This document shows positions 11,897-30,469 of a DNA stretch of 64,000 nt, piece after piece. Origin of the DNA: a virus (lineage: Duplodnaviria; Caudoviricetes). The stretch is taken from the IMG/VR virus record IMGVR_UViG_3300028833_000058. The stretch is one strand, 5' to 3'. The position numbers and the translations under genes were made by a program. Each line of letters begins with the position of its first letter. Within the stretch, counting starts at the first letter, position 1. The notes beneath the pieces were generated by a model. That model saw only the letters and a list, made by a program, of their open reading frames with translations, did not search any database and was not told the DNA's origin.

Positions 11897-12904
11897 TCAA
11901 ATCTCATTGGTATCGACTATTAAATTTGGGTTAAATTGTCTTTCATTAAACGGTTCGTTGTACTTAAAATAACCGCATGGATTTGTTATATATCTAATAT
12001 CTCTCTTTCCAAAAGTAAAGTCATTCCTACTATGTACATGCCCAGATGTAACAAGTTTAACATTTGGTAATTGTTCATCTACCCATTCCTCAAGGTCAGA
12101 TACAAAACTTGCGTTCATCAGCTTCTTTTTATATTTTTCAGATACACATTGTGGAGATAAACAGTGATGTGTCATGAGTATAATGTTAGCGTTCGGATTT
12201 ATAGTTATTATCTCATCGTGGCATCTCTTCACTTCTCTTTTAGCCTTTCTATGTAACTTCAAATAGTATCTAGGTGATAAAGGTTTTCTTTTAGATTCAT
12301 TACCCCATTGAAAATCATTTAATCTACTAATGGCTTCTGCCATAGTTTCTTCTCGTATTGTTTTCTTCGTTAATTTTGTAATAGGAGTATATTTACTCGG
12401 AAGTCCATATACAGAATACCATAAATCCCATGCTTTAAGTATATCGTTAAGTTCATCTAACGTTAAGTCACAATAGGTGTAATCGGTATAAAAAGTACTA
12501 CCGATTATAGCAGTATTTTCGTCAATCCACATCCAATCGTTTTCAAGATAATTCCAGAGTAAGTGAGTTTTTGGAAACTTTTCTTTTAGTTCTTGCTTCA
12601 ATTCTGAAAGTATTGGTTTACTTCCATCATCGTTTTCGAAATATTGTAAATGATTTCCGTCTATGAATATTACTTTTTGATTAGGAAAGAAGCTTTCGAA
12701 GAACTCTTTGTGGTCATCGATTCCAGCAGCAATGTCACCAGCTATCAATGTAATATCAACTGGTTCTTGGAAATCTTTACCAAAGTTTTTCCATAAGTCA
12801 GAAGTTTTATAAGTACCATCCCAATCTGGTCCGTTTATTCCTTTTGTATAATGTAAATCACTAATTAGACGTAATTTAGTCATTGACTTTTTCCTCATTG
12901 TCAA
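11897..12904 (-). CDS. metallophosphoesterase (probable RNA end-healing phosphatase)
   Basis: SDLH, AGDI, GNH, THH, SGHVH; coupled to RNA ligase; true start may be the MTKLRL Met. Confidence 0.85.
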   Translation of the reverse strand: MTMRKKSMTKLRLISDLHYTKGINGPDWDGTYKTSDLWKNFGKDFQEPVDITLIAGDIAAGIDDHKEFFESFFPNQKVIFIDGNHLQYFENDDGSKPILSELKQELKEKFPKTHLLWNYLENDWMWIDENTAIIGSTFYTDYTYCDLTLDELNDILKAWDLWYSVYGLPSKYTPITKLTKKTIREETMAEAISRLNDFQWGNESKRKPLSPRYYLKLHRKAKREVKRCHDEIITINPNANIILMTHHCLSPQCVSEKYKKKLMNASFVSDLEEWVDEQLPNVKLVTSGHVHSRNDFTFGKRDIRYITNPCGYFKYNEPFNERQFNPNLIVDTNEI

Positions 12905-14120
12905 TGATGTTTAACATATTTTTATATTTAACATTATCTAAATATCTATCGTAATTAGGAGTTTCTTTAATACCTTCGAAGACAGCAAAATATGTCAAAG
13001 GATAATTTTCTTTAACCCAATTAGCGAAGACTTGTTTAGCTAATTTTTCTGAACCTTGTTCTGTTAAAATCTCTTTATATTTATCTTCTCCAATCTTACC
13101 ATATTTCATTAATATATTTTTATAGGTGATTAGAGTTTTTTGTATTTTCTCAATTTTTTCGTTTAATTCTGGAAAAACTTGTAAGGCATCGTCAATAGTT
13201 CCGTTACGTATACCATCTAAAATTTTCTCATCTGTGGTTTCAAGCATATTGCGATAACCTTTTAGTCTGATATAATCTTCACACTTAATTTTTACACGAT
13301 TAAAGTTATCATCGACAATGACTACACCTTCATCTTTATCACCTTTATAAGTATTGCACAATTTTATCACATCATCTAAAGTATGTATATCAAAATACTT
13401 AACTGTATTAAATTTTTTAATCCCTGGTATTATTGCTTTAGCTATGTTAAGTGGATACTCATTGTAACTGTAAATGTTTCTACAACCTAAATAAATCAAA
13501 TCTGTTTTTGGATTATCTACTAATATACGTATCTTAGGTGAAATCAACTCAAACATATAAGTATAGTCTGGAGCAAATTCACTTAATGACACTTTGTTTT
13601 TAGATAAGCAATAGTTTATTAAATCTTGAATGGTATTACAATCGTTCGTTTCTTTTTCTTTGTATTTAGACGGAAGTTGAGATATAAGTTTATAGCTTAA
13701 ATTTGTTTCCCAACCGTTATTCGTAATCCAATGCCAATCGTCATTGTAATAGAATAACTTTATTAGTATTCCATCTACTTTTTGTTCAACTAAAGCTGAA
13801 TTCCAATCGATTTCTGGACAGAAGTCTTGACCTTGATTACCAAACTTTGTAAAAGGTGCTACTACCATACACGGATTCTTTGGGTCTTTTAAGGAAACGA
13901 CACAACCTCTGCATAATCTTACGTAAGGGTCGTTGAAATCACTGAATATACCGCTGTAAGAAAACATGTATAATTCTGGATATCTTAGTGTACCATCTTC
14001 ATTTTTCCATGGACATTGTTTTATTGTAATGAATCTTGGTTCAGCTTCTAAAAACTCTTTCCAATTTTCATTTTCTTTTATCAGTATCAAAAGTGGTCCA
14101 TACAAAGGCATATAACTCAT
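12876..14120 (-). CDS. RNA ligase (T4 Rnl1-like)
   Basis: CRG, PFTKF, motif I EQKVDG, FELISP, EGVV, VKIK. Confidence 0.9.
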   Translation of the reverse strand: MSYMPLYGPLLILIKENENWKEFLEAEPRFITIKQCPWKNEDGTLRYPELYMFSYSGIFSDFNDPYVRLCRGCVVSLKDPKNPCMVVAPFTKFGNQGQDFCPEIDWNSALVEQKVDGILIKLFYYNDDWHWITNNGWETNLSYKLISQLPSKYKEKETNDCNTIQDLINYCLSKNKVSLSEFAPDYTYMFELISPKIRILVDNPKTDLIYLGCRNIYSYNEYPLNIAKAIIPGIKKFNTVKYFDIHTLDDVIKLCNTYKGDKDEGVVIVDDNFNRVKIKCEDYIRLKGYRNMLETTDEKILDGIRNGTIDDALQVFPELNEKIEKIQKTLITYKNILMKYGKIGEDKYKEILTEQGSEKLAKQVFANWVKENYPLTYFAVFEGIKETPNYDRYLDNVKYKNMLNIIDNEEKVND

Positions 14121-14626
14121 TTAATTTCTCCAAAATCTTTATGTGAAACAATCATGTCTTCAAATTCAAGTAACTTTGTCTCTTTTATTCTGCTATACAT
14201 GTTCTTTATGACATCTTCTGGGACAAATCTACCACCATTTTCTCCACGTTTAATGTTGTTTCTTAAACAATCTTCCAAAAGCATATCGGAGAAATCTACA
14301 ATAGTAAAGTTAATTGTTGGGTTTATACCATTCATAATTCTATATTCTTTTAGAATTGATTTTCTGGATATAAAAGTAGCATCAATTACAGTTATCTTAT
14401 TGTTTTCTAATGATTTTTTCAATCTTTCGTGAACTATCTTCCATATTTTACATTCGAAAGTATTTCCCCACTCTTCTTTCTTTGACTTAAATTCATCCCT
14501 TATGTCATCTGGACAAATTACACACGTGTTAGAATCAGAAAAATGTTTAGCCACAAATGTACTTTTACCACAACCAGGTATTCCATGTGTTAAAACTAAA
14601 TGTCTTTTTTCATCATTAAATGTCAT
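14117..14626 (-). CDS. polynucleotide kinase (AAA_33 P-loop kinase)
   Basis: GIPGCGKST, CPDDIR, IDAT, RxVPEDVI. Confidence 0.88.
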   Translation of the reverse strand: MTFNDEKRHLVLTHGIPGCGKSTFVAKHFSDSNTCVICPDDIRDEFKSKKEEWGNTFECKIWKIVHERLKKSLENNKITVIDATFISRKSILKEYRIMNGINPTINFTIVDFSDMLLEDCLRNNIKRGENGGRFVPEDVIKNMYSRIKETKLLEFEDMIVSHKDFGEIK

Positions 14627-20103: not shown

Positions 20104-20775
20104 TTAAAATTTCATCTTTCGACCTTTTTTCCAGCCTTGAGCTACAAATTGGTCTAAAAATTCTTTTTTTATACTTTTATTTTGTTTTAATTCGTCATTG
20201 TATACCCAACAATGACCATAGTTTGAATTTAAATTCCCTTTTTGACGAATTGAATTTTTTATAGCTATTTTCTTCTTTGTTTCTTCTGTTAAATGTTTTC
20301 CTTTCATTGGGTTTTCATGTGTTCTATAGTATTCTTTAAGTCCGTTTGATATTCTTTCTATGTATTCGGAATATTCTTTTTGTGTCATTGATGTCCAAAA
20401 TTTCTTATTTCCAATGATACATGGGTGATTTTTTCCATATTCAATCCAGTTGTTTTTCGCTTTTATAGATTGGATTTCATGATTGTTACAACAATAATCC
20501 CATCCACCTTCTCCACCAACTTTTATGTTATATGTATCAACTCTTTTTATAAATTCTTCATCGACAAGTTCTTTTTCTTTTTGATTCATTTCTTCTTCAC
20601 TCTTACATTCAAATAAAATTTCTTTTTTAAAATTGTTTAATCCATACTTTTTGAATGCTTCAAAAAGTATTTTTCCAGAACCCATGTATTCATCATTTAT
20701 CTTATCAGTTTTATGTTTTCCAATGTAAATTTTATTGTTTAAAACGTTTGTTATTTTATATATTAAAAAGTACAT
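20104..20775 (-). CDS. GIY-YIG homing endonuclease with NUMOD3 (SegB-like)
   Basis: IYKITN...KIYIGKH, YMGSG, YNIKVGG, NPMKGKHLTEETKKKI; start at ATG 20775 after AAGGAG; follows the tRNA array. Confidence 0.9.
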   Translation of the reverse strand: MYFLIYKITNVLNNKIYIGKHKTDKINDEYMGSGKILFEAFKKYGLNNFKKEILFECKSEEEMNQKEKELVDEEFIKRVDTYNIKVGGEGGWDYCCNNHEIQSIKAKNNWIEYGKNHPCIIGNKKFWTSMTQKEYSEYIERISNGLKEYYRTHENPMKGKHLTEETKKKIAIKNSIRQKGNLNSNYGHCWVYNDELKQNKSIKKEFLDQFVAQGWKKGRKMKF

Positions 20776-20823
20776 AACTGTCTCCTTATGTACTAGAACT
20801 TTTTTGTACACAAATTTTTGAAA

Positions 20824-20898
20824 TGGCACAGGATGGTTAGAATCGAACTACCATCTTTCGGGTTGGAGCCGAATATTTTACCATTAAACTAATCCTGC
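20824..20898 (-). tRNA. tRNA-Trp(CCA)
   Basis: TTCGG-CT CCA AC-CCGAA; CCA end. Confidence 0.85.
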
Positions 20899-21336: not shown

Positions 21337-21412
21337 TGGTGAAGATGGTGAGAATCGAACTCACACTCCCCTGATTAAAAGTCAGGTGCTTTACCGATTA
21401 AGCTACATCTTC
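21337..21412 (-). tRNA. tRNA-Lys(TTT)
   Basis: CCTGA-CT TTT AA-TCAGG; CCA end. Confidence 0.93.
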
Positions 21413-21492: not shown

Positions 21493-21571
21493 TGGTGGAG
21501 AATGTGAGTTTTGAACTCACCTGAATTTCTCGGTGCAAACGAGATGACCACCCCAAGCAGTCCCATTCCCC
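21493..21571 (-). tRNA. tRNA-Ala(TGC)
   Basis: TCTCG-TT TGC AC-CGAGA; G3:U70; CCA end. Confidence 0.9.
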
Positions 21572-21594
21572 ACGAAATTTATAATATATACCTA

Positions 21595-21637
21595 AAAATA
21601 AGAAAAACCCCCGAAACTTTTTATTTTTTCGGAGGTT
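21595..21637 (-). terminator. attenuator terminator in front of tRNA array A
   Basis: AACCTCCGAAA-loop-TTTCGGGGGTT followed by TTTCTTATTTT. Confidence 0.85.
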
Positions 21638-21676
21638 GTACAATTTTTTACTTAGAGCCAAGAAATAAAGTTTTAG

Positions 21677-21754
21677 TTAATAGTCGACACCTCCGTCAGT
21701 TTTACCTGCGAATCCAAACATGTGCCAACATTTCTTAACTAATCTATTCATCAT
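21677..21754 (-). CDS. leader (attenuator) peptide A, MMNRLVKKCWHMFGFAGKTDGGVDY
   Basis: AGGAG RBS; 25 codons; KKCWHMFGFAGK matches the downstream tRNA set; CGGAGGT at 21695-21689 complementary to the terminator 5' arm. Confidence 0.85.
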   Translation of the reverse strand: MMNRLVKKCWHMFGFAGKTDGGVDY

Positions 21755-21787
21755 ATTAAATAGAACTCCTTTTTCTTTACTTCTTCT

Positions 21788-21816
21788 CTTATATCAAACT
21801 TTTTTCATAAAGTCAA
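21788..21816 (-). promoter_or_regulatory. sigma70-type promoter of leader A and tRNA array A
   Basis: TTGACT-17 bp-TATAAG with extended TG. Confidence 0.75.
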
Positions 21817-21836
21817 GTATTTTTTTTTAAGATTTT

Positions 21837-21964
21837 TGTCAAAGAGAATTTTTCAAACAGATTTTTGCAGCAGGACTTGAACCTGCATAGCTTTTCAGCT
21901 GTTGTTTTTTGAGAACAATGTGTATACCATTTCACGATGCAACTGTTTGACCGCTTCTTTGACA
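21837..21964 (-). ncRNA. Y-RNA-like RNA carrying a tRNA-Leu(CAA)-like body
   Basis: GTCAAAG/CTTTGAC stem, AG-C-GGT bulged-C helix, then D arm, TTGTT-CT CAA AA-AACAA, long variable arm, GCAGG-TTCAAGT-CCTGC. Confidence 0.8.
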
Positions 21965-22067
21965 TAATAACTAAATGAAAAACTTTACGTATTTTTCTTG
22001 AGTACTTCTCAACAACGGTTAGTCAACATTGGAGAGGGGGTATGAAGCCCTAGAAGTAATTAGTTTG

Positions 22068-22188
22068 TGGTAAAGAGTATAAATAGAACAGGTTTATTGC
22101 AGTAGGACTTGAACCTACAATCCTTTGATTAAAAATCAAATGTTTTATCCACTTAAACGATGCAACTGTTCCAACCGCTTCTTTACCA
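22068..22188 (-). ncRNA. Y-RNA-like RNA carrying a tRNA-Lys(TTT)-like body
   Basis: GGTAAAG/CTTTACC stem, same AAGCGGT helix, D arm, TTTGA-TT TTT AA-TCAAA, GTAGG-TTCAAGT-CCTAC. Confidence 0.8.
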
Positions 22189-22199
22189 AAATTTATGCT

Positions 22200-22273
22200 C
22201 GAAGAGAATATTTAGAAATTGTGTATTTAGTCAACAACCCTTAGACGATGTAACAATTTCAACCGCTTCTTCG
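22200..22273 (-). ncRNA. short Y-RNA-like RNA
   Basis: CGAAG-AAGCGGT-GAAATTG...CAATTTC-ATTCT-CTTCG; shares TRCATCG with the other copies. Confidence 0.7.
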
Positions 22274-22282
22274 CTCTAATAA

Positions 22283-22597
22283 TTATTCACACAAATCAGA
22301 GTTTGTACATGAGTTGTATGGCTTACGACTATATGAAACTTCTTCATAAGTTTTTGGCTCATAAACTGTAGTATAAGTAACATCTTTGTAAATTACTTCT
22401 ACTGGTTTAGAAATAGTGTAACTTGTTGAACAAGTGTTACATTCATTGTTGTAAGAACGATATGTGTTGTAAGAAGGTTTAGTGTAGTTTACAACAGGTT
22501 TTTGTTCTTCAACTTTTGGAGTAACAATTACTTCTTCTGTTTCAGCACAAGTACAAGCACTTAATAAAATAGAGCATAACATTAAAACTTTTTTCAT
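22283..22597 (-). CDS. putative lipoprotein
   Basis: Signal peptide MKKVLMLCSILLSAC with lipobox; Tyr/Thr/Cys-rich. Confidence 0.7.
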   Translation of the reverse strand: MKKVLMLCSILLSACTCAETEEVIVTPKVEEQKPVVNYTKPSYNTYRSYNNECNTCSTSYTISKPVEVIYKDVTYTTVYEPKTYEEVSYSRKPYNSCTNSDLCE

Positions 22598-22629
22598 GTC
22601 AATTACCTTTCGAACGTTGTTGATAAGTT

Positions 22630-22721
22630 AGTGAGGATTAGAGTATCATAAAGATTTGTTATTTCTAAAGCAGATTACATGTCTGGACTCGATGTAAATC
22701 TTTAACCGCTTAATCCTCACT
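22630..22721 (-). ncRNA. Y-RNA-like RNA directly after the Ro60 stop codon
   Basis: AGTGAGGATT-AAGCGGT-AAAGATTT...AAATCTTT-ATACTCT-AATCCTCACT. Confidence 0.75.
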
Positions 22722-22724
22722 TTC

Positions 22725-24353
22725 TTAGTCATTTACCGATGTCTTTATTTTAATAGAACTCTTCTTTTCTACTTTTTCATCTGTAATATTATCCATTCTA
22801 TCCCAAATGTCAATTAAAGTTTTAGCATAAATGGATTCTTTACCAGTCCAACCAGTTAGAATACTTGTTCTGTATTCATTTTCTGGCATTACATTGTTGT
22901 CATAGCCAGCTGTTTGAATAGAAAAGATATTAACTTTTGCATTAACCTTTCTTCTATATTCTTGAACAAGCTTTAAGACATCAATGAATTTTGAATTGTT
23001 GTATAAATAATCACGATAATGATGTTCATTTAATCCATACAATCCACCATGACCAGCTTGCATATCAGAGTAGATGAAAATGTTATCGTAATGTATCTTT
23101 TTCTTTATAGCTTCGTCAAAGAATAACCATATACCATTTTCAGTACTAGCACCGATGTTGTGTGAATGTCTACATTGAATTCTATCTAATTGAGACAGTA
23201 CACCATCTCTTTTGTTGACTGATTCGATTTCTAACCTATCTCCAAAGATTCCAACATACCCTTCATCAGAATTAATAGCTGTCATAACTGAAGATAAGTT
23301 ATCAATTTCAGCAACTTTAGTAGAACCATATTCAGTAGTTAATGCACCCCATGCTGAACCAGAGTTATCCGACAAGCAGATGGTCTTACCCTTTAACTTA
23401 GGGAAATTGTCCATTGCTCTATCTATACATCTGTTCAAGCTTTCTACAATAGCAGATTCACCCTTAACACGTGGATTAGAAGTTTGAATAGCCTTTAATG
23501 CAGACCAATATCTAAATGGAAATTGCTTACCCTTTTCGACACCGTTTTCAAGCATTTCAAGAACTTGCTTTCTGACATCTTCATCTTCAATCTCAGTAAA
23601 AATACCACGTAAGTTTCTTAAAAGAGCCATATGTGGGACATAAGTTGCTTGTAAAATTTCTGTCCAAGTTTTACCAGCACTTCTTAACTTTTCCCAAGTA
23701 GATTCTTCTTCTGTAACTTCAATAGTACCAGACTTCATAAGTTCATCAATGTCTTCAGAGTGAGCATGACAAATACGAACTAAGTCGATGATTTTAGCAC
23801 TTGTCTTGTACTTAGCCAATTGATATTTTTTAGTTACAGATAATTTGTTAGCCCATGCTCTTTTTAAGATAGATGGTAATTTACTTTTGGAGCCATTGAA
23901 GAACATCCACAATTCGAACTGATTCCAAATGTCAGTAGGAATGTTGATAACTTCTTCAATGCAACTACGCATGAACACCTTGTTTTCTTCATTAAAAGCT
24001 TTTCTACCATCATACATTACAGCTCTAACCATAATCAAAGCTGGGTTTAAACGCATATTGTATTCATATCTTAACTTTTTAGCAAGATTTAATACACCTT
24101 CGAAATCATAAGCTAAAGCATTGTCACAAGCTTCAACAAAAGTTGCTGTTGTACCAGATAACTCTTTGTTGTTAGCACCATCGTTTTTGTAATATGACTT
24201 TTCACCAAAAATAGATGACGCAGCAACCATTTCTAGCTCTAGCAATGGGTTAGTTTTATAGGAAATACCATTCATGAAGTTTACAACTTGCTCATCTTTG
24301 TGCTTGTTGTAATCTGCTTCAGATTTCTTTGCATAACCTGAGAATTTAGACAT
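22725..24353 (-). CDS. TROVE-domain RNA-binding protein (Ro60/Rsr homolog)
   Basis: SIFGExSYY, YQLAKY, TWExLRS, MALLRNLR, QFPFRY, vWA MIDAS DNSGS, YSDMQ. Confidence 0.93.
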   Translation of the reverse strand: MSKFSGYAKKSEADYNKHKDEQVVNFMNGISYKTNPLLELEMVAASSIFGEKSYYKNDGANNKELSGTTATFVEACDNALAYDFEGVLNLAKKLRYEYNMRLNPALIMVRAVMYDGRKAFNEENKVFMRSCIEEVINIPTDIWNQFELWMFFNGSKSKLPSILKRAWANKLSVTKKYQLAKYKTSAKIIDLVRICHAHSEDIDELMKSGTIEVTEEESTWEKLRSAGKTWTEILQATYVPHMALLRNLRGIFTEIEDEDVRKQVLEMLENGVEKGKQFPFRYWSALKAIQTSNPRVKGESAIVESLNRCIDRAMDNFPKLKGKTICLSDNSGSAWGALTTEYGSTKVAEIDNLSSVMTAINSDEGYVGIFGDRLEIESVNKRDGVLSQLDRIQCRHSHNIGASTENGIWLFFDEAIKKKIHYDNIFIYSDMQAGHGGLYGLNEHHYRDYLYNNSKFIDVLKLVQEYRRKVNAKVNIFSIQTAGYDNNVMPENEYRTSILTGWTGKESIYAKTLIDIWDRMDNITDEKVEKKSSIKIKTSVND

Positions 24354-28187: not shown

Positions 28188-28706
28188 TTAAGCTTTTTTA
28201 TAAGATTTATTCTTCAATATAAAGATTATTCTGCTATGTGCAACACCAAATTTTCTAGCTAATCCACGAGTTCCGAATTCTTTATGTTTTGGAATATAAT
28301 GTTCTCTTATCCATTTAGCTTGTTCATTTGTAAGTTTTGCACCATGGTTATCTTCACCACCATGATATGTTATTAAATTATGCTTTACTGCGTGAATAGT
28401 ATTTTCTTGATTAGTACACCACTCTAAGTTATCCCAACGATTGTTTAATTTGTTTCCATCAATGTGATTTACTTGTGGTTTGTTTTCTGGATTTGGTACA
28501 AAAGCTTCAGCAACCAACCTGTGAATTTTTACACATTTACATCCACCTTTTCTACCATTTGGATATAAAGCGTATACATAATAGCCTGTCTTTCCAATTT
28601 GTTGCTTTACGTTTTTGTTAGACCTACCCTTTAGATTGCCTAGATTACTTATAAAATAACCTTGTATATCAATTTCTTTCCAAATTTCTTCTTCGATGTT
28701 TTCCAT
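28188..28706 (-). CDS. HNH homing endonuclease (NUMOD4-HNH)
   Basis: EIWKEI...YFISNLG, IHRLVAEAF, VNHIDGNKLNN...NLEW. Confidence 0.92.
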   Translation of the reverse strand: MENIEEEIWKEIDIQGYFISNLGNLKGRSNKNVKQQIGKTGYYVYALYPNGRKGGCKCVKIHRLVAEAFVPNPENKPQVNHIDGNKLNNRWDNLEWCTNQENTIHAVKHNLITYHGGEDNHGAKLTNEQAKWIREHYIPKHKEFGTRGLARKFGVAHSRIIFILKNKSYKKA

Positions 28707-28794
28707 TTACAAATTCCTATATTGTTATGACTAATTTATAGAACTATATAAATGGTGCCTATTTTTCATCGAACACAAAATTTTTATAAAAATT

Positions 28795-28866
28795 TGATTC
28801 CAACGAGATTCGAACTCGTATTACCACCGTGAAAGGGTGATGACCTAACCGTTAGTCGATGGAATC
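28795..28866 (-). tRNA. tRNA-Glu(TTC)
   Basis: TCACC-CT TTC AC-GGTGG; CCA not encoded. Confidence 0.88.
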
Positions 28867-28945
28867 ATAATAATCAACGCTTTTTGATTGCATGGTAAAA
28901 ACCACCAAACCTTATTATGGAGAAGCATTGATGAAACTCCTTGAT

Positions 28946-30373: not shown

Positions 30374-30381
30374 ATGATATT

Positions 30382-30462
30382 TACAGATGGAGAGATTTGA
30401 ACTCTCACGCATTTCTGCACTGGTTCCTAAGACCAGAGTGTCTACCGTTCCACCACATCTGT
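30382..30462 (-). tRNA. tRNA-Leu(TAG)
   Basis: CTGGT-CT TAG GA-ACCAG; CCA not encoded. Confidence 0.9.
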
Positions 30463-30469
30463 ATAAATT

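What the first reader, a model, noticed from the sequence alone, without database searches (positions are those of the whole stretch)
21837..22188. Y RNAs carrying complete tRNA-Lys(UUU) and tRNA-Leu(CAA) bodies: candidate anticodon-nuclease decoys
Seen: two of the Y-like RNAs contain D arm, anticodon arm with a 7-nt loop (TT-TTT-AA; CT-CAA-AA), variable region (long, Leu-type in the CAA copy) and T arm in normal tRNA order. The acceptor stem is cut to 5 bp (TTGCA/TGCAA) and continues into the Ro-binding stem, with no CCA end. As I recall, described YrlA RNAs are permuted mimics in which the Ro stem takes the place of the anticodon arm, so this is the opposite topology. Established: tRNA-Lys(UUU) is the target of PrrC and of PARIS AriB. 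Inference: non-chargeable anticodon baits that titrate defence nucleases or tether tRNA-binding enzymes to Ro60.
Basis: partly seen in the sequence, partly recalled or inferred. Interest (0 to 1): 0.82.

Follow-up and report, generated by a model that had tools for sequence, protein, structure and literature searches.

The report
Phage Y RNAs carrying whole tRNA bodies
Next to its Ro60 gene, a large tRNA-rich phage encodes four Ro60-partner (Y) RNAs, two of which hold a complete tRNA in normal order with lysine (UUU) and leucine (CAA) anticodon loops; I found no paper describing this form, and it suggests these RNAs display anticodon arms to tRNA-directed enzymes.

Summary
On the minus strand, just downstream of a phage Ro60/TROVE gene (22725-24353), lie four RNAs with one shared stem "handle". 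Two of them (22068-22188 and 21837-21964) enclose full tRNA cloverleaves in normal order, with anticodon loops UUUUUAA (Lys UUU) and CUCAAAA (Leu CAA, long variable arm). Each has a 5-bp acceptor helix that runs through a 4-5-nt bulge into the handle, and neither has CCA.

They score as tRNA in Rfam (56 and 38 bits) but not as YrlA. In contrast, 22 of the window's 24 ordinary tRNAs have 7-bp acceptors and an encoded CCA.

The same handle occurs beside related Ro60 genes in about 40 phage contigs. There it carries:
- classical permuted YrlA mimics
- unpermuted tRNAs
- bare anticodon stem-loops
- plain hairpins

The Lys-UUU anticodon arm recurs in at least 6 lineages.

The decoy function is untested. 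It is plausible, and Hughes et al. 2020 already suggested a competitive-inhibitor role for YrlA. Rival readings are a tether, a pro-tRNA and a cleavage sensor.

This is a new variant of a known kind. Earlier reports of this scan noted similar phage Ro60-like loci with tRNA-cargo RNAs on other DNA.

The parts
22725..24353 (-). Ro60 (TROVE) protein gene, 542 aa
   Evidence: Pfam TROVE PF05731, E 2.8e-11. Matches Thermus phage phiLo Ro60 structures 9KOP/9L5Y, E 3e-13. 48% identical to Bacillus phage G gp540. 44 relatives found in IMG/VR.
22630..22721 (-). Y RNA U0: handle plus hairpin cargo, no tRNA body
   Evidence: Terminal stem GUGAGGAUUA/UAAUCCUCAC, AAGCGGUU motif, UUUACAUCG. Fold -23.0 kcal/mol, z -3.2.
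22200..22273 (-). Y RNA U1: handle plus short cargo, no tRNA body
   Evidence: CGAAGA-AGCGGUU-GAAAUUG-UUACAUCG ... CAAUUUC-UAAAUAUUC-UCUUCG. Its own minimum-energy fold is not significant (z -0.36). It is assigned by the handle and by its orthologue at L001:5754-5829.
22068..22188 (-). Y RNA U2: handle plus unpermuted tRNA-Lys(UUU)-like body (22094-22167; anticodon arm 22124-22140; anticodon 22131-22133)
   Evidence: 72 of 74 nt identical to the L001 orthologue.
21837..21964 (-). Y RNA U3: handle plus unpermuted class-II tRNA-Leu(CAA)-like body (21862-21944; anticodon arm 21902-21918; anticodon 21909-21911)
   Evidence: The orthologue at L001:5984-6110 has compensatory changes in the acceptor, variable-arm, T and handle stems. 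Its anticodon arm is identical except nt 34-35 (UGA instead of CAA).
21965..22067 (-). Spacer between U2 and U3 (about 100 nt). L001 has only 19 nt here. No assigned function.
   Evidence: The fold is not significant (z -0.5).
21337..21412 (-). Canonical phage tRNA-Lys(UUU), for comparison
   Evidence: Rfam tRNA 79.4 bits, 7-bp acceptor, encoded CCA.
11897..14626 (-). Context: RNA-repair cassette of metallophosphoesterase, Rnl1-like RNA ligase and polynucleotide-kinase-like P-loop kinase
   Evidence: Pfam Metallophos and AAA_33. PHROGs phrog_1649 E 1e-25, phrog_562 E 3e-35, phrog_505 E 8e-20.

Best explanation
**What it is (about 0.85).** U2 and U3 are two of four tandem Y RNAs that partner the phage's Ro60.
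- All four share a bipartite handle: terminal stem, then GAAGCGG in an internal loop, a second stem and GUUAC(A/U)UCG. On the 3' side the order is second stem, A(U/A)(U/A)CUC, terminal stem.
- This handle is a divergent form of the YrlA Ro60-binding module.
- In U2 and U3 the cargo is a whole tRNA in normal order. Its acceptor helix is fused to the handle, so it has no free ends and no CCA.
- They are therefore not ordinary decoding tRNAs.

**How it most likely works (inferred, about 0.4).**
- Ro60 holds the handle.
- The L-shaped cargo displays a genuine anticodon arm (Lys UUU, or Leu CAA) to proteins that recognise tRNA anticodon loops.
- Most probably these are host anticodon nucleases of tRNA-targeting defence systems.
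- For those nucleases the particle would act as a competitive bait, or as a sacrificial substrate that stays held together.

**Shown:** the anatomy, the conservation, the Ro60 neighbourhood and the modular cargo.
**Inferred:** Ro60 binding, expression as discrete RNAs, non-chargeability and the identity of the partner.
For: 1. Ro60 gene and four handle-bearing units on one strand.
2. The handle recurs beside Ro60 genes in about 40 IMG/VR contigs and in Bacillus phage G. I found 81 distinct units; their stems differ in sequence but always pair. In the sister contig L002 the same handle carries a permuted cargo that Rfam YrlA matches over its full length (38 bits, E 5e-5).
3. The cloverleaf arms are supported by compensatory changes in 15 of 20 pairs across 7 units from 5 lineages.
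4. The Lys-UUU anticodon arm (xUUGA-YUUUUAA-UCAAx) recurs in W, L001, L027, L031 and L028/L047, and in variant form in L029, while the D and T stems diverge.
5. In L028:5850 and L047:120 the cargo is only two anticodon stem-loops (Lys UUU plus UAA), with no tRNA body. So the anticodon arm itself is the conserved cargo.
6. Between W-U3 and its L001 orthologue the 17-nt anticodon arm differs only at anticodon nt 34-35 (CAA against UGA), on an otherwise conserved class-II body. This would cause mistranslation if the RNA were charged, because LeuRS and SerRS do not read the anticodon (established knowledge).
7. There is no CCA and the acceptor is 5 bp, whereas 22 of 24 canonical tRNAs in the window have a 7-bp acceptor and CCA. 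Canonical tRNA-Lys(UUU) genes coexist with the Y-borne copy in W, L001, the L029 phage and the L028 phage.
8. The window encodes Rnl1-like ligase and Pnk-like kinase genes. In T4 this enzyme pair repairs PrrC-cut tRNA-Lys (PMC10264068).
9. A competitive-inhibitor role for a Y RNA tRNA-like domain has been proposed in print (PMC7790460).
Against: - There are no expression, end-mapping, Ro60-binding or nuclease data.
- The published Ro60 motif GNCGAAN0-1G is degenerate in the window's units (AAAGAAGCGG). CGAAG is present in only 20 of 75 family units.
- A stoichiometric decoy is a weak answer to a catalytic nuclease unless it binds tightly or is resealed.
- Anticodons in the family are varied (UUU, UGA, CAA, UAA, UUA, GUA, GGU, GCU), so no single nuclease explains them.
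- RNA-repair genes do not travel consistently with these RNAs. There are only weak ligase-like hits in G001 and G002, none in G004, and no RtcB in any of the three.
- One complete phage (G001) has no other tRNA-Lys(UUU), and L029's Lys unit has a perfect 7-bp acceptor. These leave room for processing into a working tRNA.
- The U2 cloverleaf is 6 kcal/mol above its minimum-energy fold.
Confidence: 0.4

Rival explanations
1. Tether or adaptor, the classical Y RNA model. The tRNA-shaped cargo recruits a tRNA-binding protein to Ro60, or brings Ro60 and an exoribonuclease such as PNPase to tRNA-handling complexes. Candidate partners are the phage Rnl1/Pnk repair enzymes, LysRS, an anticodon-loop modification enzyme, and the CCA-adding enzyme. 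In this reading the RNA does not inhibit a nuclease.
For: - Y RNAs tether Ro60 to PNPase in D. radiodurans (as described in PMC4201824).
- A phage Ro60-Yrl-PNPase complex has been reconstituted (PMC12135203).
- YrlA is modified by TruB and DusA (PMC4201824).
- The window carries Rnl1-like and Pnk-like genes.
- Four cargo types on one handle look like a set of adaptors.
Against: - No partner is identified.
- The repair genes do not consistently co-occur with anticodon-bearing Y RNAs.
- Bare anticodon stem-loops as cargo (L028, L047) narrow the candidates to readers of the anticodon arm.
Confidence: 0.25
2. Pro-tRNAs. The handle is a paired leader and trailer, perhaps a Ro60-controlled storage form. 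RNase P, 3' trimming and CCA addition would release working tRNA-Lys and tRNA-Leu.
For: - M. smegmatis YrlA is cut by RNase P and receives CCA in vivo (PMC4201824).
- L029's Lys unit has a full 7-bp acceptor.
- The complete phage G001 has no other tRNA-Lys(UUU).
- Both window units have A at the discriminator position.
Against: - In the window the acceptor is 5 bp, with 1:72 mismatched and 2:71 a G-U wobble (U2) or a mismatch (U3).
- No CCA is encoded, although 22 of 24 canonical tRNAs encode it.
- A canonical tRNA-Lys(UUU) lies 700 nt away.
- The same handle carries hairpins, permuted mimics and bare anticodon loops, which cannot become tRNAs.
- The anticodon switches between Leu and Ser on an unchanged body in orthologues.
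Confidence: 0.12
3. Cleavage sensor. The displayed anticodon loop is cut when a host anticodon nuclease is switched on. The nick changes what Ro60 does, for example by opening its cavity or recruiting an exonuclease or ligase, and so couples tRNA attack to a phage response.
For: - Y RNAs are thought to gate Ro60. [quoted passage not shown]
- In Salmonella, tRNA halves are the signal for the rsr-yrlBA-rtcBA operon (PMC7790460).
- The closed handle would keep a nicked cargo together.
Against: Purely inferential. Nothing in the sequence distinguishes this reading from a bait.
Confidence: 0.1
4. Decaying tRNA gene copies that happen to sit inside repeated inverted repeats, with no function of their own.
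For: - Both score lower in Rfam tRNA than their canonical neighbours (56 and 38 bits against 79 bits for the canonical tRNA-Lys).
- Their stems are AU-rich.
Against: - 72 of 74 nt are identical between W and L001, although the two phages' canonical tRNA-Lys genes are unrelated in sequence.
- Compensatory changes occur in all stems.
- The architecture recurs in at least 4 places on the Ro60 tree.
Confidence: 0.03

Closest known systems
YrlA, the bacterial and phage Y RNA-like A (Rfam RF02553; Chen et al. 2014, PMC4201824; Wang et al. 2018, 10.1101/312249)
   Same: - Encoded beside Ro60 on the same strand, often in tandem with a second Y RNA.
- The 5' and 3' ends pair into a handle whose conserved 5'-strand motif contains (C)GAAG.
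- The second module is a tRNA mimic with canonical T-loop and D-loop nucleotides and no free CCA end.
- The same handle as in the window carries classical YrlA cargo in the sister contig L002 and in phage G.
   Different: - YrlA is circularly permuted (T arm, closed acceptor stem-loop, D arm). The handle takes the place of the anticodon stem and there is no anticodon loop.
- Here the order is D, anticodon arm, variable region, T. The handle extends the acceptor stem and a true 7-nt anticodon loop is displayed.
- The Rfam YrlA model finds nothing in the window region at E up to 10.
Deinococcus radiodurans Yrn1 (Chen et al. 2013 and 2014)
   Same: As modelled in PMC4201824, it has the opposite orientation to YrlA. 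A potential 'anticodon arm' with a 5-bp stem lies between D-like and T-like elements, so the Ro60-binding stem sits on the acceptor side. That is the same topology as here.
   Different: - Yrn1 has only a rudimentary mimic: a 6-nt loop, no full D arm, no variable arm, and no dihydrouridine detected.
- Its large loop binds PNPase.
- The window's units are complete cloverleaves that pass the Rfam tRNA threshold.
Thermus phage phiLo Ro60 with Yrl1 and Yrl2 (PMC12135203)
   Same: A phage Ro60 homologous to the window's protein (E 3e-13). Its Y-like RNAs are encoded next to the gene and have a stem-bulge-stem handle with a CGAA motif.
   Different: - The phiLo Yrls are described as simple stem-bulge-stem RNAs upstream of the gene.
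- No tRNA body or anticodon loop is reported.
- The proposed partner is host PNPase.
Phage tRNAs that counter tRNA-targeting defences (T5 tRNA-Lys against PARIS AriB, PMC12409363; phage tRNAs against retron and PrrC, PMC11555353; anticodon-loop variants, PMC10264068)
   Same: Phage-encoded tRNA-Lys(UUU)-type sequences, set in a large phage tRNA cluster, in a context where anticodon cleavage is the threat.
   Different: Those are chargeable, nuclease-resistant replacement tRNAs. The window's units have no free acceptor end or CCA, are fused to a Ro60 handle, and coexist with a canonical tRNA-Lys.

Membership tests
Ro60-associated Y RNA (functional class) | Encoded close to a Ro60/TROVE gene and on the same strand | tested here: met
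   U0-U3 lie 4 to 890 nt downstream of the TROVE gene on the minus strand. The same arrangement is seen in L001, L027, L029, L031 and L028.
Ro60-associated Y RNA (functional class) | The 5' and 3' ends pair into a stem whose bulge or internal loop carries the conserved Ro60-binding motif (GGUCCGA in animals; GNCGAAN0-1G or CGAA in bacteria and phages) | tested here: inconclusive
   The stem-internal loop-stem is present in all four units. The family consensus is YYGAAGCGG. CGAAG occurs in 20 of 75 units and the full GNCGAAN0-1G in 3 of 75. The window's units read AGAAGCGG or UUAAGCGG.
Ro60-associated Y RNA (functional class) | Physically bound by Ro60 | not testable with these tools
   Needs co-purification or a gel-shift assay with the phage Ro60.
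YrlA (Rfam RF02553) | Score at or above the family's gathering threshold (69 bits) | tested here: not met
   No YrlA match at E up to 10 in window 21500-22800. Permuted units in relatives reach only 28-38 bits.
YrlA (Rfam RF02553) | tRNA-like domain in permuted order (T arm, closed acceptor stem-loop, D arm) with the handle in place of the anticodon stem and no anticodon loop | tested here: not met
   The order here is D, anticodon arm, variable region, T. The handle continues the acceptor stem and a 7-nt anticodon loop is present.
YrlA (Rfam RF02553) | Conserved tRNA tertiary-interaction nucleotides (U8, A14, G18 G19, T-loop UUCRA, 15:48 pair) | tested here: met
   U8, A14, GG in the D loop, GGUUCAAGUCC T loop, and A15 with U48 can be read in both units.
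Canonical decoding tRNA (Rfam RF00005) | Covariance-model score above 29 bits, with a cloverleaf and a 7-nt anticodon loop | tested here: met
   56.4 bits for U2 and 37.8 bits for U3 (local, positions 3-68).
Canonical decoding tRNA (Rfam RF00005) | 7-bp acceptor stem with free ends and a 3' CCA, either encoded or added | tested here: not met
   The acceptor is 5 bp, and positions 1-2 pair into the handle helix. The 3' side continues UAAAC or AAAU and then enters a helix. No CCA is encoded, against 22 of 24 canonical tRNAs in the window. Whether processing and CCA addition occur cannot be tested here.
Canonical decoding tRNA (Rfam RF00005) | Aminoacylation and use in decoding | not testable with these tools
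   There is only an indirect argument against it. The orthologous class-II units carry CAA in W and UGA in L001 on a conserved body.
D. radiodurans Yrn1-type Y RNA | Handle on the acceptor side, with an anticodon-arm-like hairpin between D-like and T-like elements | tested here: met
   The topology matches the description in PMC4201824. No sequence homology to Yrn1 was tested.

The most novel reading that the evidence does not exclude
Large phages use Ro60 as a platform for a swappable library of anticodon-arm displays: whole tRNAs, bare anticodon stem-loops and permuted mimics on one handle. These would neutralise, or sense, host tRNA-cleaving immune nucleases. The Lys-UUU arm would be the commonest bait because tRNA-Lys(UUU) is the commonest target. 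This would give the long-unexplained tRNA-like domain of bacterial Y RNAs a concrete function in the tRNA-cleavage arms race.
Probability: 0.25. Interest if true: 0.85.

Novelty: new variant of a known kind. Interest (0 to 1): 0.62.

Why it matters
The function of the tRNA-like domain of bacterial and phage Y RNAs has been open since 2014. Described YrlA RNAs lack an anticodon loop, which gives few clues to a partner.

These phage RNAs keep the Ro60 handle but display intact anticodon arms, sometimes nothing but anticodon arms. The tRNA-Lys(UUU) arm is the recurrent cargo. That narrows the candidate partners to proteins that read anticodon loops: anticodon nucleases, repair ligases and kinases, loop-modifying enzymes and LysRS.

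The published 'competitive inhibitor' idea then becomes directly testable with short, defined RNAs.

There is also a practical annotation point. ARAGORN and the Rfam tRNA model call these units tRNA-Lys and tRNA-Leu genes. They may therefore inflate phage tRNA counts, and searches that discard hits overlapping annotated tRNAs, as Chen et al. 2014 did, would miss them.

Tried and rejected
1. DNA similarity of the locus to 50,697 deposited phage genomes gave no match. Relatives were reachable only through the Ro60 protein.
2. No whole genome is held for this window, so host tRNAs could not be compared with the cargo. MAG labels of related contigs are scattered (Helicobacteraceae, Synergistaceae, Eubacteriales and others) and give no host.
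3. The metagenome scan with the handle pattern returned 120 stretches. Most of those I sampled were chance matches in GC-rich coding DNA. It added no new lineage with unpermuted cargo.
4. I looked for RNA-repair genes travelling with anticodon-bearing Y RNAs in three near-complete relatives. There is no close homologue of the window's ligase, only weak phrog_562 hits (E about 5e-4) in two of them, and no RtcB. So the repair link is contextual for this window only.
5. A single consensus structure for the acceptor and second stem across lineages was not possible. The junction differs: a 4-5-nt bulge in W, L001 and L029-Thr, and continuous stacking in L027 and L031. RNAalifold therefore dropped those helices, and I verified pairing per sequence instead.
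6. I considered that all displayed loops have A or U at position 36 (the i6A or t6A classes, from my own knowledge), which would point to A37-modifying enzymes. The AT-rich composition could explain this, so I did not pursue it.
7. The careful Ro60 tree did not finish in the time allowed. Only the quick tree is reported.
Full report
**The setting.** The window is AT-rich phage DNA. It has 26 tRNA-type genes on the minus strand, homing endonucleases inside the tRNA arrays, an anaerobic ribonucleotide reductase, a thymidylate synthase and a ClpB-like ATPase.
- The 542-aa ORF at 22725-24353 (minus) is a Ro60 homologue. It matches Pfam TROVE (E 2.8e-11) and the solved Ro60 of Thermus phage phiLo (9KOP/9L5Y, E 3e-13). 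It is 48% identical to Bacillus phage G gp540.
- No deposited phage genome resembles the locus at the DNA level.
- No whole genome is held for the window.

**The observation.** Four units follow the Ro60 stop codon on the same strand:
- U0, 22630-22721
- U1, 22200-22273
- U2, 22068-22188
- U3, 21837-21964

All four share one frame. It runs: terminal stem, AAGCGGU in an internal loop, a second stem, then UU(A/G)CAUCG. On the 3' side it runs: second stem, AU(U/A)CUC, terminal stem. The motif AAGCGGTY occurs 6 times in the window against 0.99 expected, and four of the six are these units.

U2 and U3 contain what ARAGORN and the Rfam tRNA model call tRNA-Lys(UUU) (56.4 bits) and tRNA-Leu(CAA) (37.8 bits, local).

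- anticodon loops UUUUUAA and CUCAAAA
- a long variable arm in the CAA copy
- a 5-bp acceptor UUGCA/UGCAA
- no CCA
- continuation into a long stem

Folding results:
- The minimum-energy fold of U3 is exactly handle plus class-II cloverleaf (-35.0 kcal/mol, z -4.2).
- In U2 the handle, acceptor and T arm are in the minimum-energy fold, but the AU-rich D and anticodon arms are not. The cloverleaf lies 6 kcal/mol above it. I regard this as the one soft spot.

By contrast, 22 of the 24 remaining tRNAs in the window have a 7-bp acceptor and an encoded CCA. They include a canonical tRNA-Lys(UUU) 700 nt away (79.4 bits).

**A family, not a one-off.** The Ro60 protein retrieved 44 IMG/VR loci and 9 MAG contigs. 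A script that requires the 5' motif, both paired stems and the 3' motif found 81 distinct units, nearly all next to Ro60. The stems differ in sequence but always pair. The cargo inside the handle is modular:
- (a) Classical permuted YrlA (T arm, closed acceptor loop, D arm) in L002, L028, L032, L034, L043, L044 and phage G. Rfam YrlA recognises six units in L002, L028, L043 and phage G (the loci searched) below threshold, at 28-38 bits.
- (b) Unpermuted tRNA bodies:
  - W: Lys-UUU and Leu-CAA
  - L001: Lys-UUU and Ser-UGA
  - L027 group: Ser-GCU and Lys-UUU
  - L029: Lys-UUU, Thr-GGU and Tyr-GUA
  - L031: UUA and Lys-UUU
  - L028: Ser-UGA
  - L043: Ser-GCU (the Tyr-GUA unit, L029:5893-5998, is called by Rfam tRNA, not by ARAGORN)
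- (c) Bare anticodon stem-loops. L028:5850 and L047:120 carry a Lys-UUU arm plus a UAA arm and nothing else. L031:2055, L029:3830 and L027:5863 carry single arms.
- (d) Small hairpins.
- (e) A cargo of about 210 nt, upstream of Ro60, in another clade.

Further comparative results:
- An alignment of seven unpermuted units from five lineages gives D, anticodon and T stems and the terminal stem, with compensatory changes in 15 of 20 pairs.
- Hairpins with a 7-nt Y-U-NNN-R-N loop number 54 in the units against 15.9 +/- 3.9 in shuffles. This count includes the T loops.
- On a quick Ro60 tree, anticodon-bearing cargo sits in at least four places (W+L001; L027/L029/L031; L028; L043). These are interleaved with lineages that carry permuted YrlA (L002, phage G). 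Cargo is therefore exchanged on a conserved handle.

**What the comparisons say about constraint.**
- The W and L001 Lys units are 72/74 identical, although the two phages' canonical tRNA-Lys genes are unrelated in sequence.
[quoted passage not shown] L029 has a variant stem.
- The class-II units of W and L001 have compensatory changes in the acceptor, variable-arm, T and handle stems. Their D arms are identical. Their anticodon arms are identical except at anticodon positions 34 and 35 (CAA against UGA).
- LeuRS and SerRS do not read the anticodon (established knowledge). Such a switch on an unchanged body would therefore make a mis-sense tRNA if it were charged. This argues that these RNAs do not decode.
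- Canonical tRNA-Lys(UUU) genes coexist with the Y-borne copy in W, L001, the L029 phage and the L028 phage. The complete L027 phage has none.

**Comparison with what is known.**
- Chen et al. 2014 (PMC4201824) and Wang et al. 2018 (10.1101/312249) define YrlA as a circularly permuted mimic with a closed acceptor loop and no anticodon loop. In it the 5'/3' stem takes the anticodon-stem position.
- The handle is nevertheless homologous. The sister contig L002 has the same handle around cargo that the YrlA model matches end to end. Many relatives read (G)NCGAAGCGG, which overlaps the published GNCGAAN0-1G motif. The window's copies are degenerate, reading AGAAGCGG.
- The orientation is not wholly new. 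Chen et al. model D. radiodurans Yrn1 with a 5-bp 'anticodon arm' and a 6-nt loop in this orientation.
- In the papers I could search I found no description of complete, unpermuted tRNAs or of bare anticodon stem-loops on a Ro60 handle.
- Chen et al. removed candidates overlapping annotated tRNAs. That step would have hidden units like these.
- Earlier reports of this scan noted analogous phage Ro60-like loci with handle RNAs and tRNA-type cargo on other DNA. One note covers the four-unit array in this same window.

**Mechanism.**
- Shown: the anatomy, the conservation pattern, the Ro60 neighbourhood and the modular cargo.
- Inferred: Ro60 binds the handle and the cargo is displayed.

Because the anticodon arm is the most conserved cargo element, and is sometimes the only one, the partner should be a protein that reads anticodon loops. 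I favour host anticodon nucleases, with the RNA acting as bait or competitive inhibitor, at about 0.35-0.4. The reasons are:
- tRNA-Lys(UUU) is the classic target of PrrC and AriB (PMC10264068, PMC12409363).
- The window encodes Rnl1-like and Pnk-like genes. In T4 this enzyme pair repairs PrrC-cut tRNA-Lys (PMC10264068).
- Hughes et al. 2020 already suggested that the YrlA tRNA-like domain may competitively inhibit an anticodon nuclease (PMC7790460).

Against it:
- The displayed anticodons are varied.
- Repair genes do not consistently accompany these RNAs in relatives.
- A stoichiometric decoy is a weak answer to a catalytic enzyme.
- There are no experimental data.

The alternatives are a tether for tRNA-binding enzymes or PNPase (0.25), pro-tRNAs released by RNase P and CCA addition (0.12), a cleavage sensor (0.1), and decaying tRNA copies (0.03).

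**Verdict.**
The structure and the contrast with YrlA are right, the function is untested, and the decoy idea has a precedent in print.
- This is a new variant of a known kind (Ro60-Y RNA).
- It is of real interest to people working on Y RNAs and on tRNA-targeting phage defence, because it turns an open question into simple binding and cleavage experiments.

Noticed in passing
window 11897-14626 (-): Three adjacent genes form an RNA-repair cassette: a metallophosphoesterase (11897-12904), an Rnl1-like RNA ligase (12876-14120; phrog_562, E 3e-35; no Pfam hit) and a polynucleotide-kinase-like P-loop kinase (14117-14626). In T4 this enzyme set repairs PrrC-cut tRNA-Lys.
   Followed up: partly
window 22283-22597 (-): A 104-aa ORF with a lipoprotein-type signal (…LLSAC…) sits between Y RNAs U0 and U1. 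L001 has no such insert. No Pfam or PHROG match.
   Followed up: partly
L028:5850-5949 and L047:120-224: A Y RNA whose cargo is only two anticodon stem-loops (Lys UUU, loop CUUUUAA; and UAA, loop CUUAAAA), with no D or T arm. The second stem differs between the two contigs, with compensation.
   Followed up: partly
L014, L017, L019, L020, L023, L024, L026, L037, L038, about 400 nt upstream of Ro60 (e.g. L017:3530-3745): In another Ro60 clade the same handle encloses a conserved cargo of about 210 nt that is not tRNA-like. It is followed by one or two small hairpin-cargo Y RNAs. What the large cargo is remains unknown.
   Followed up: no
L028:1881-2524; L043:1658-2015: A ROOL RNA (Rfam, 284 bits) and a tmRNA (161 bits) lie within a few kb of the Ro60-Y RNA loci, among the tRNA genes of these phages.
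   Followed up: no
G001 (record of L027, 155.8 kb, rated complete): This phage has no canonical tRNA-Lys(UUU). The Y-embedded unit is its only UUU-anticodon tRNA-shaped gene. W, L001, the L029 phage and the L028 phage each also have a canonical one.
   Followed up: yes
L028:5974-6137 and L083:707-845: Classical permuted YrlA units whose 'V' hairpin before the T arm has a 7-nt anticodon-like loop, CUGUUAA.
   Followed up: no
window 28794-28867 and 30381-30463 (-): tRNA-Glu(UUC) and tRNA-Leu(UAG) are the only two canonical-looking tRNAs of the window without an encoded CCA.
   Followed up: no
window 21965-22067 and 22215-22240 (-): The motif GUUGACUAA occurs both in the cargo of U1 and in the roughly 100-nt spacer between U2 and U3 (L001 has only 19 nt there). 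In U1 it forms a promoter-like TTGACT-16-AATATT that faces U2.
   Followed up: no
window 20104-20829 and 28188-28706 (-): GIY-YIG (SegE-like) and HNH homing-endonuclease genes are inserted in the tRNA arrays that flank the Ro60 locus.
   Followed up: no
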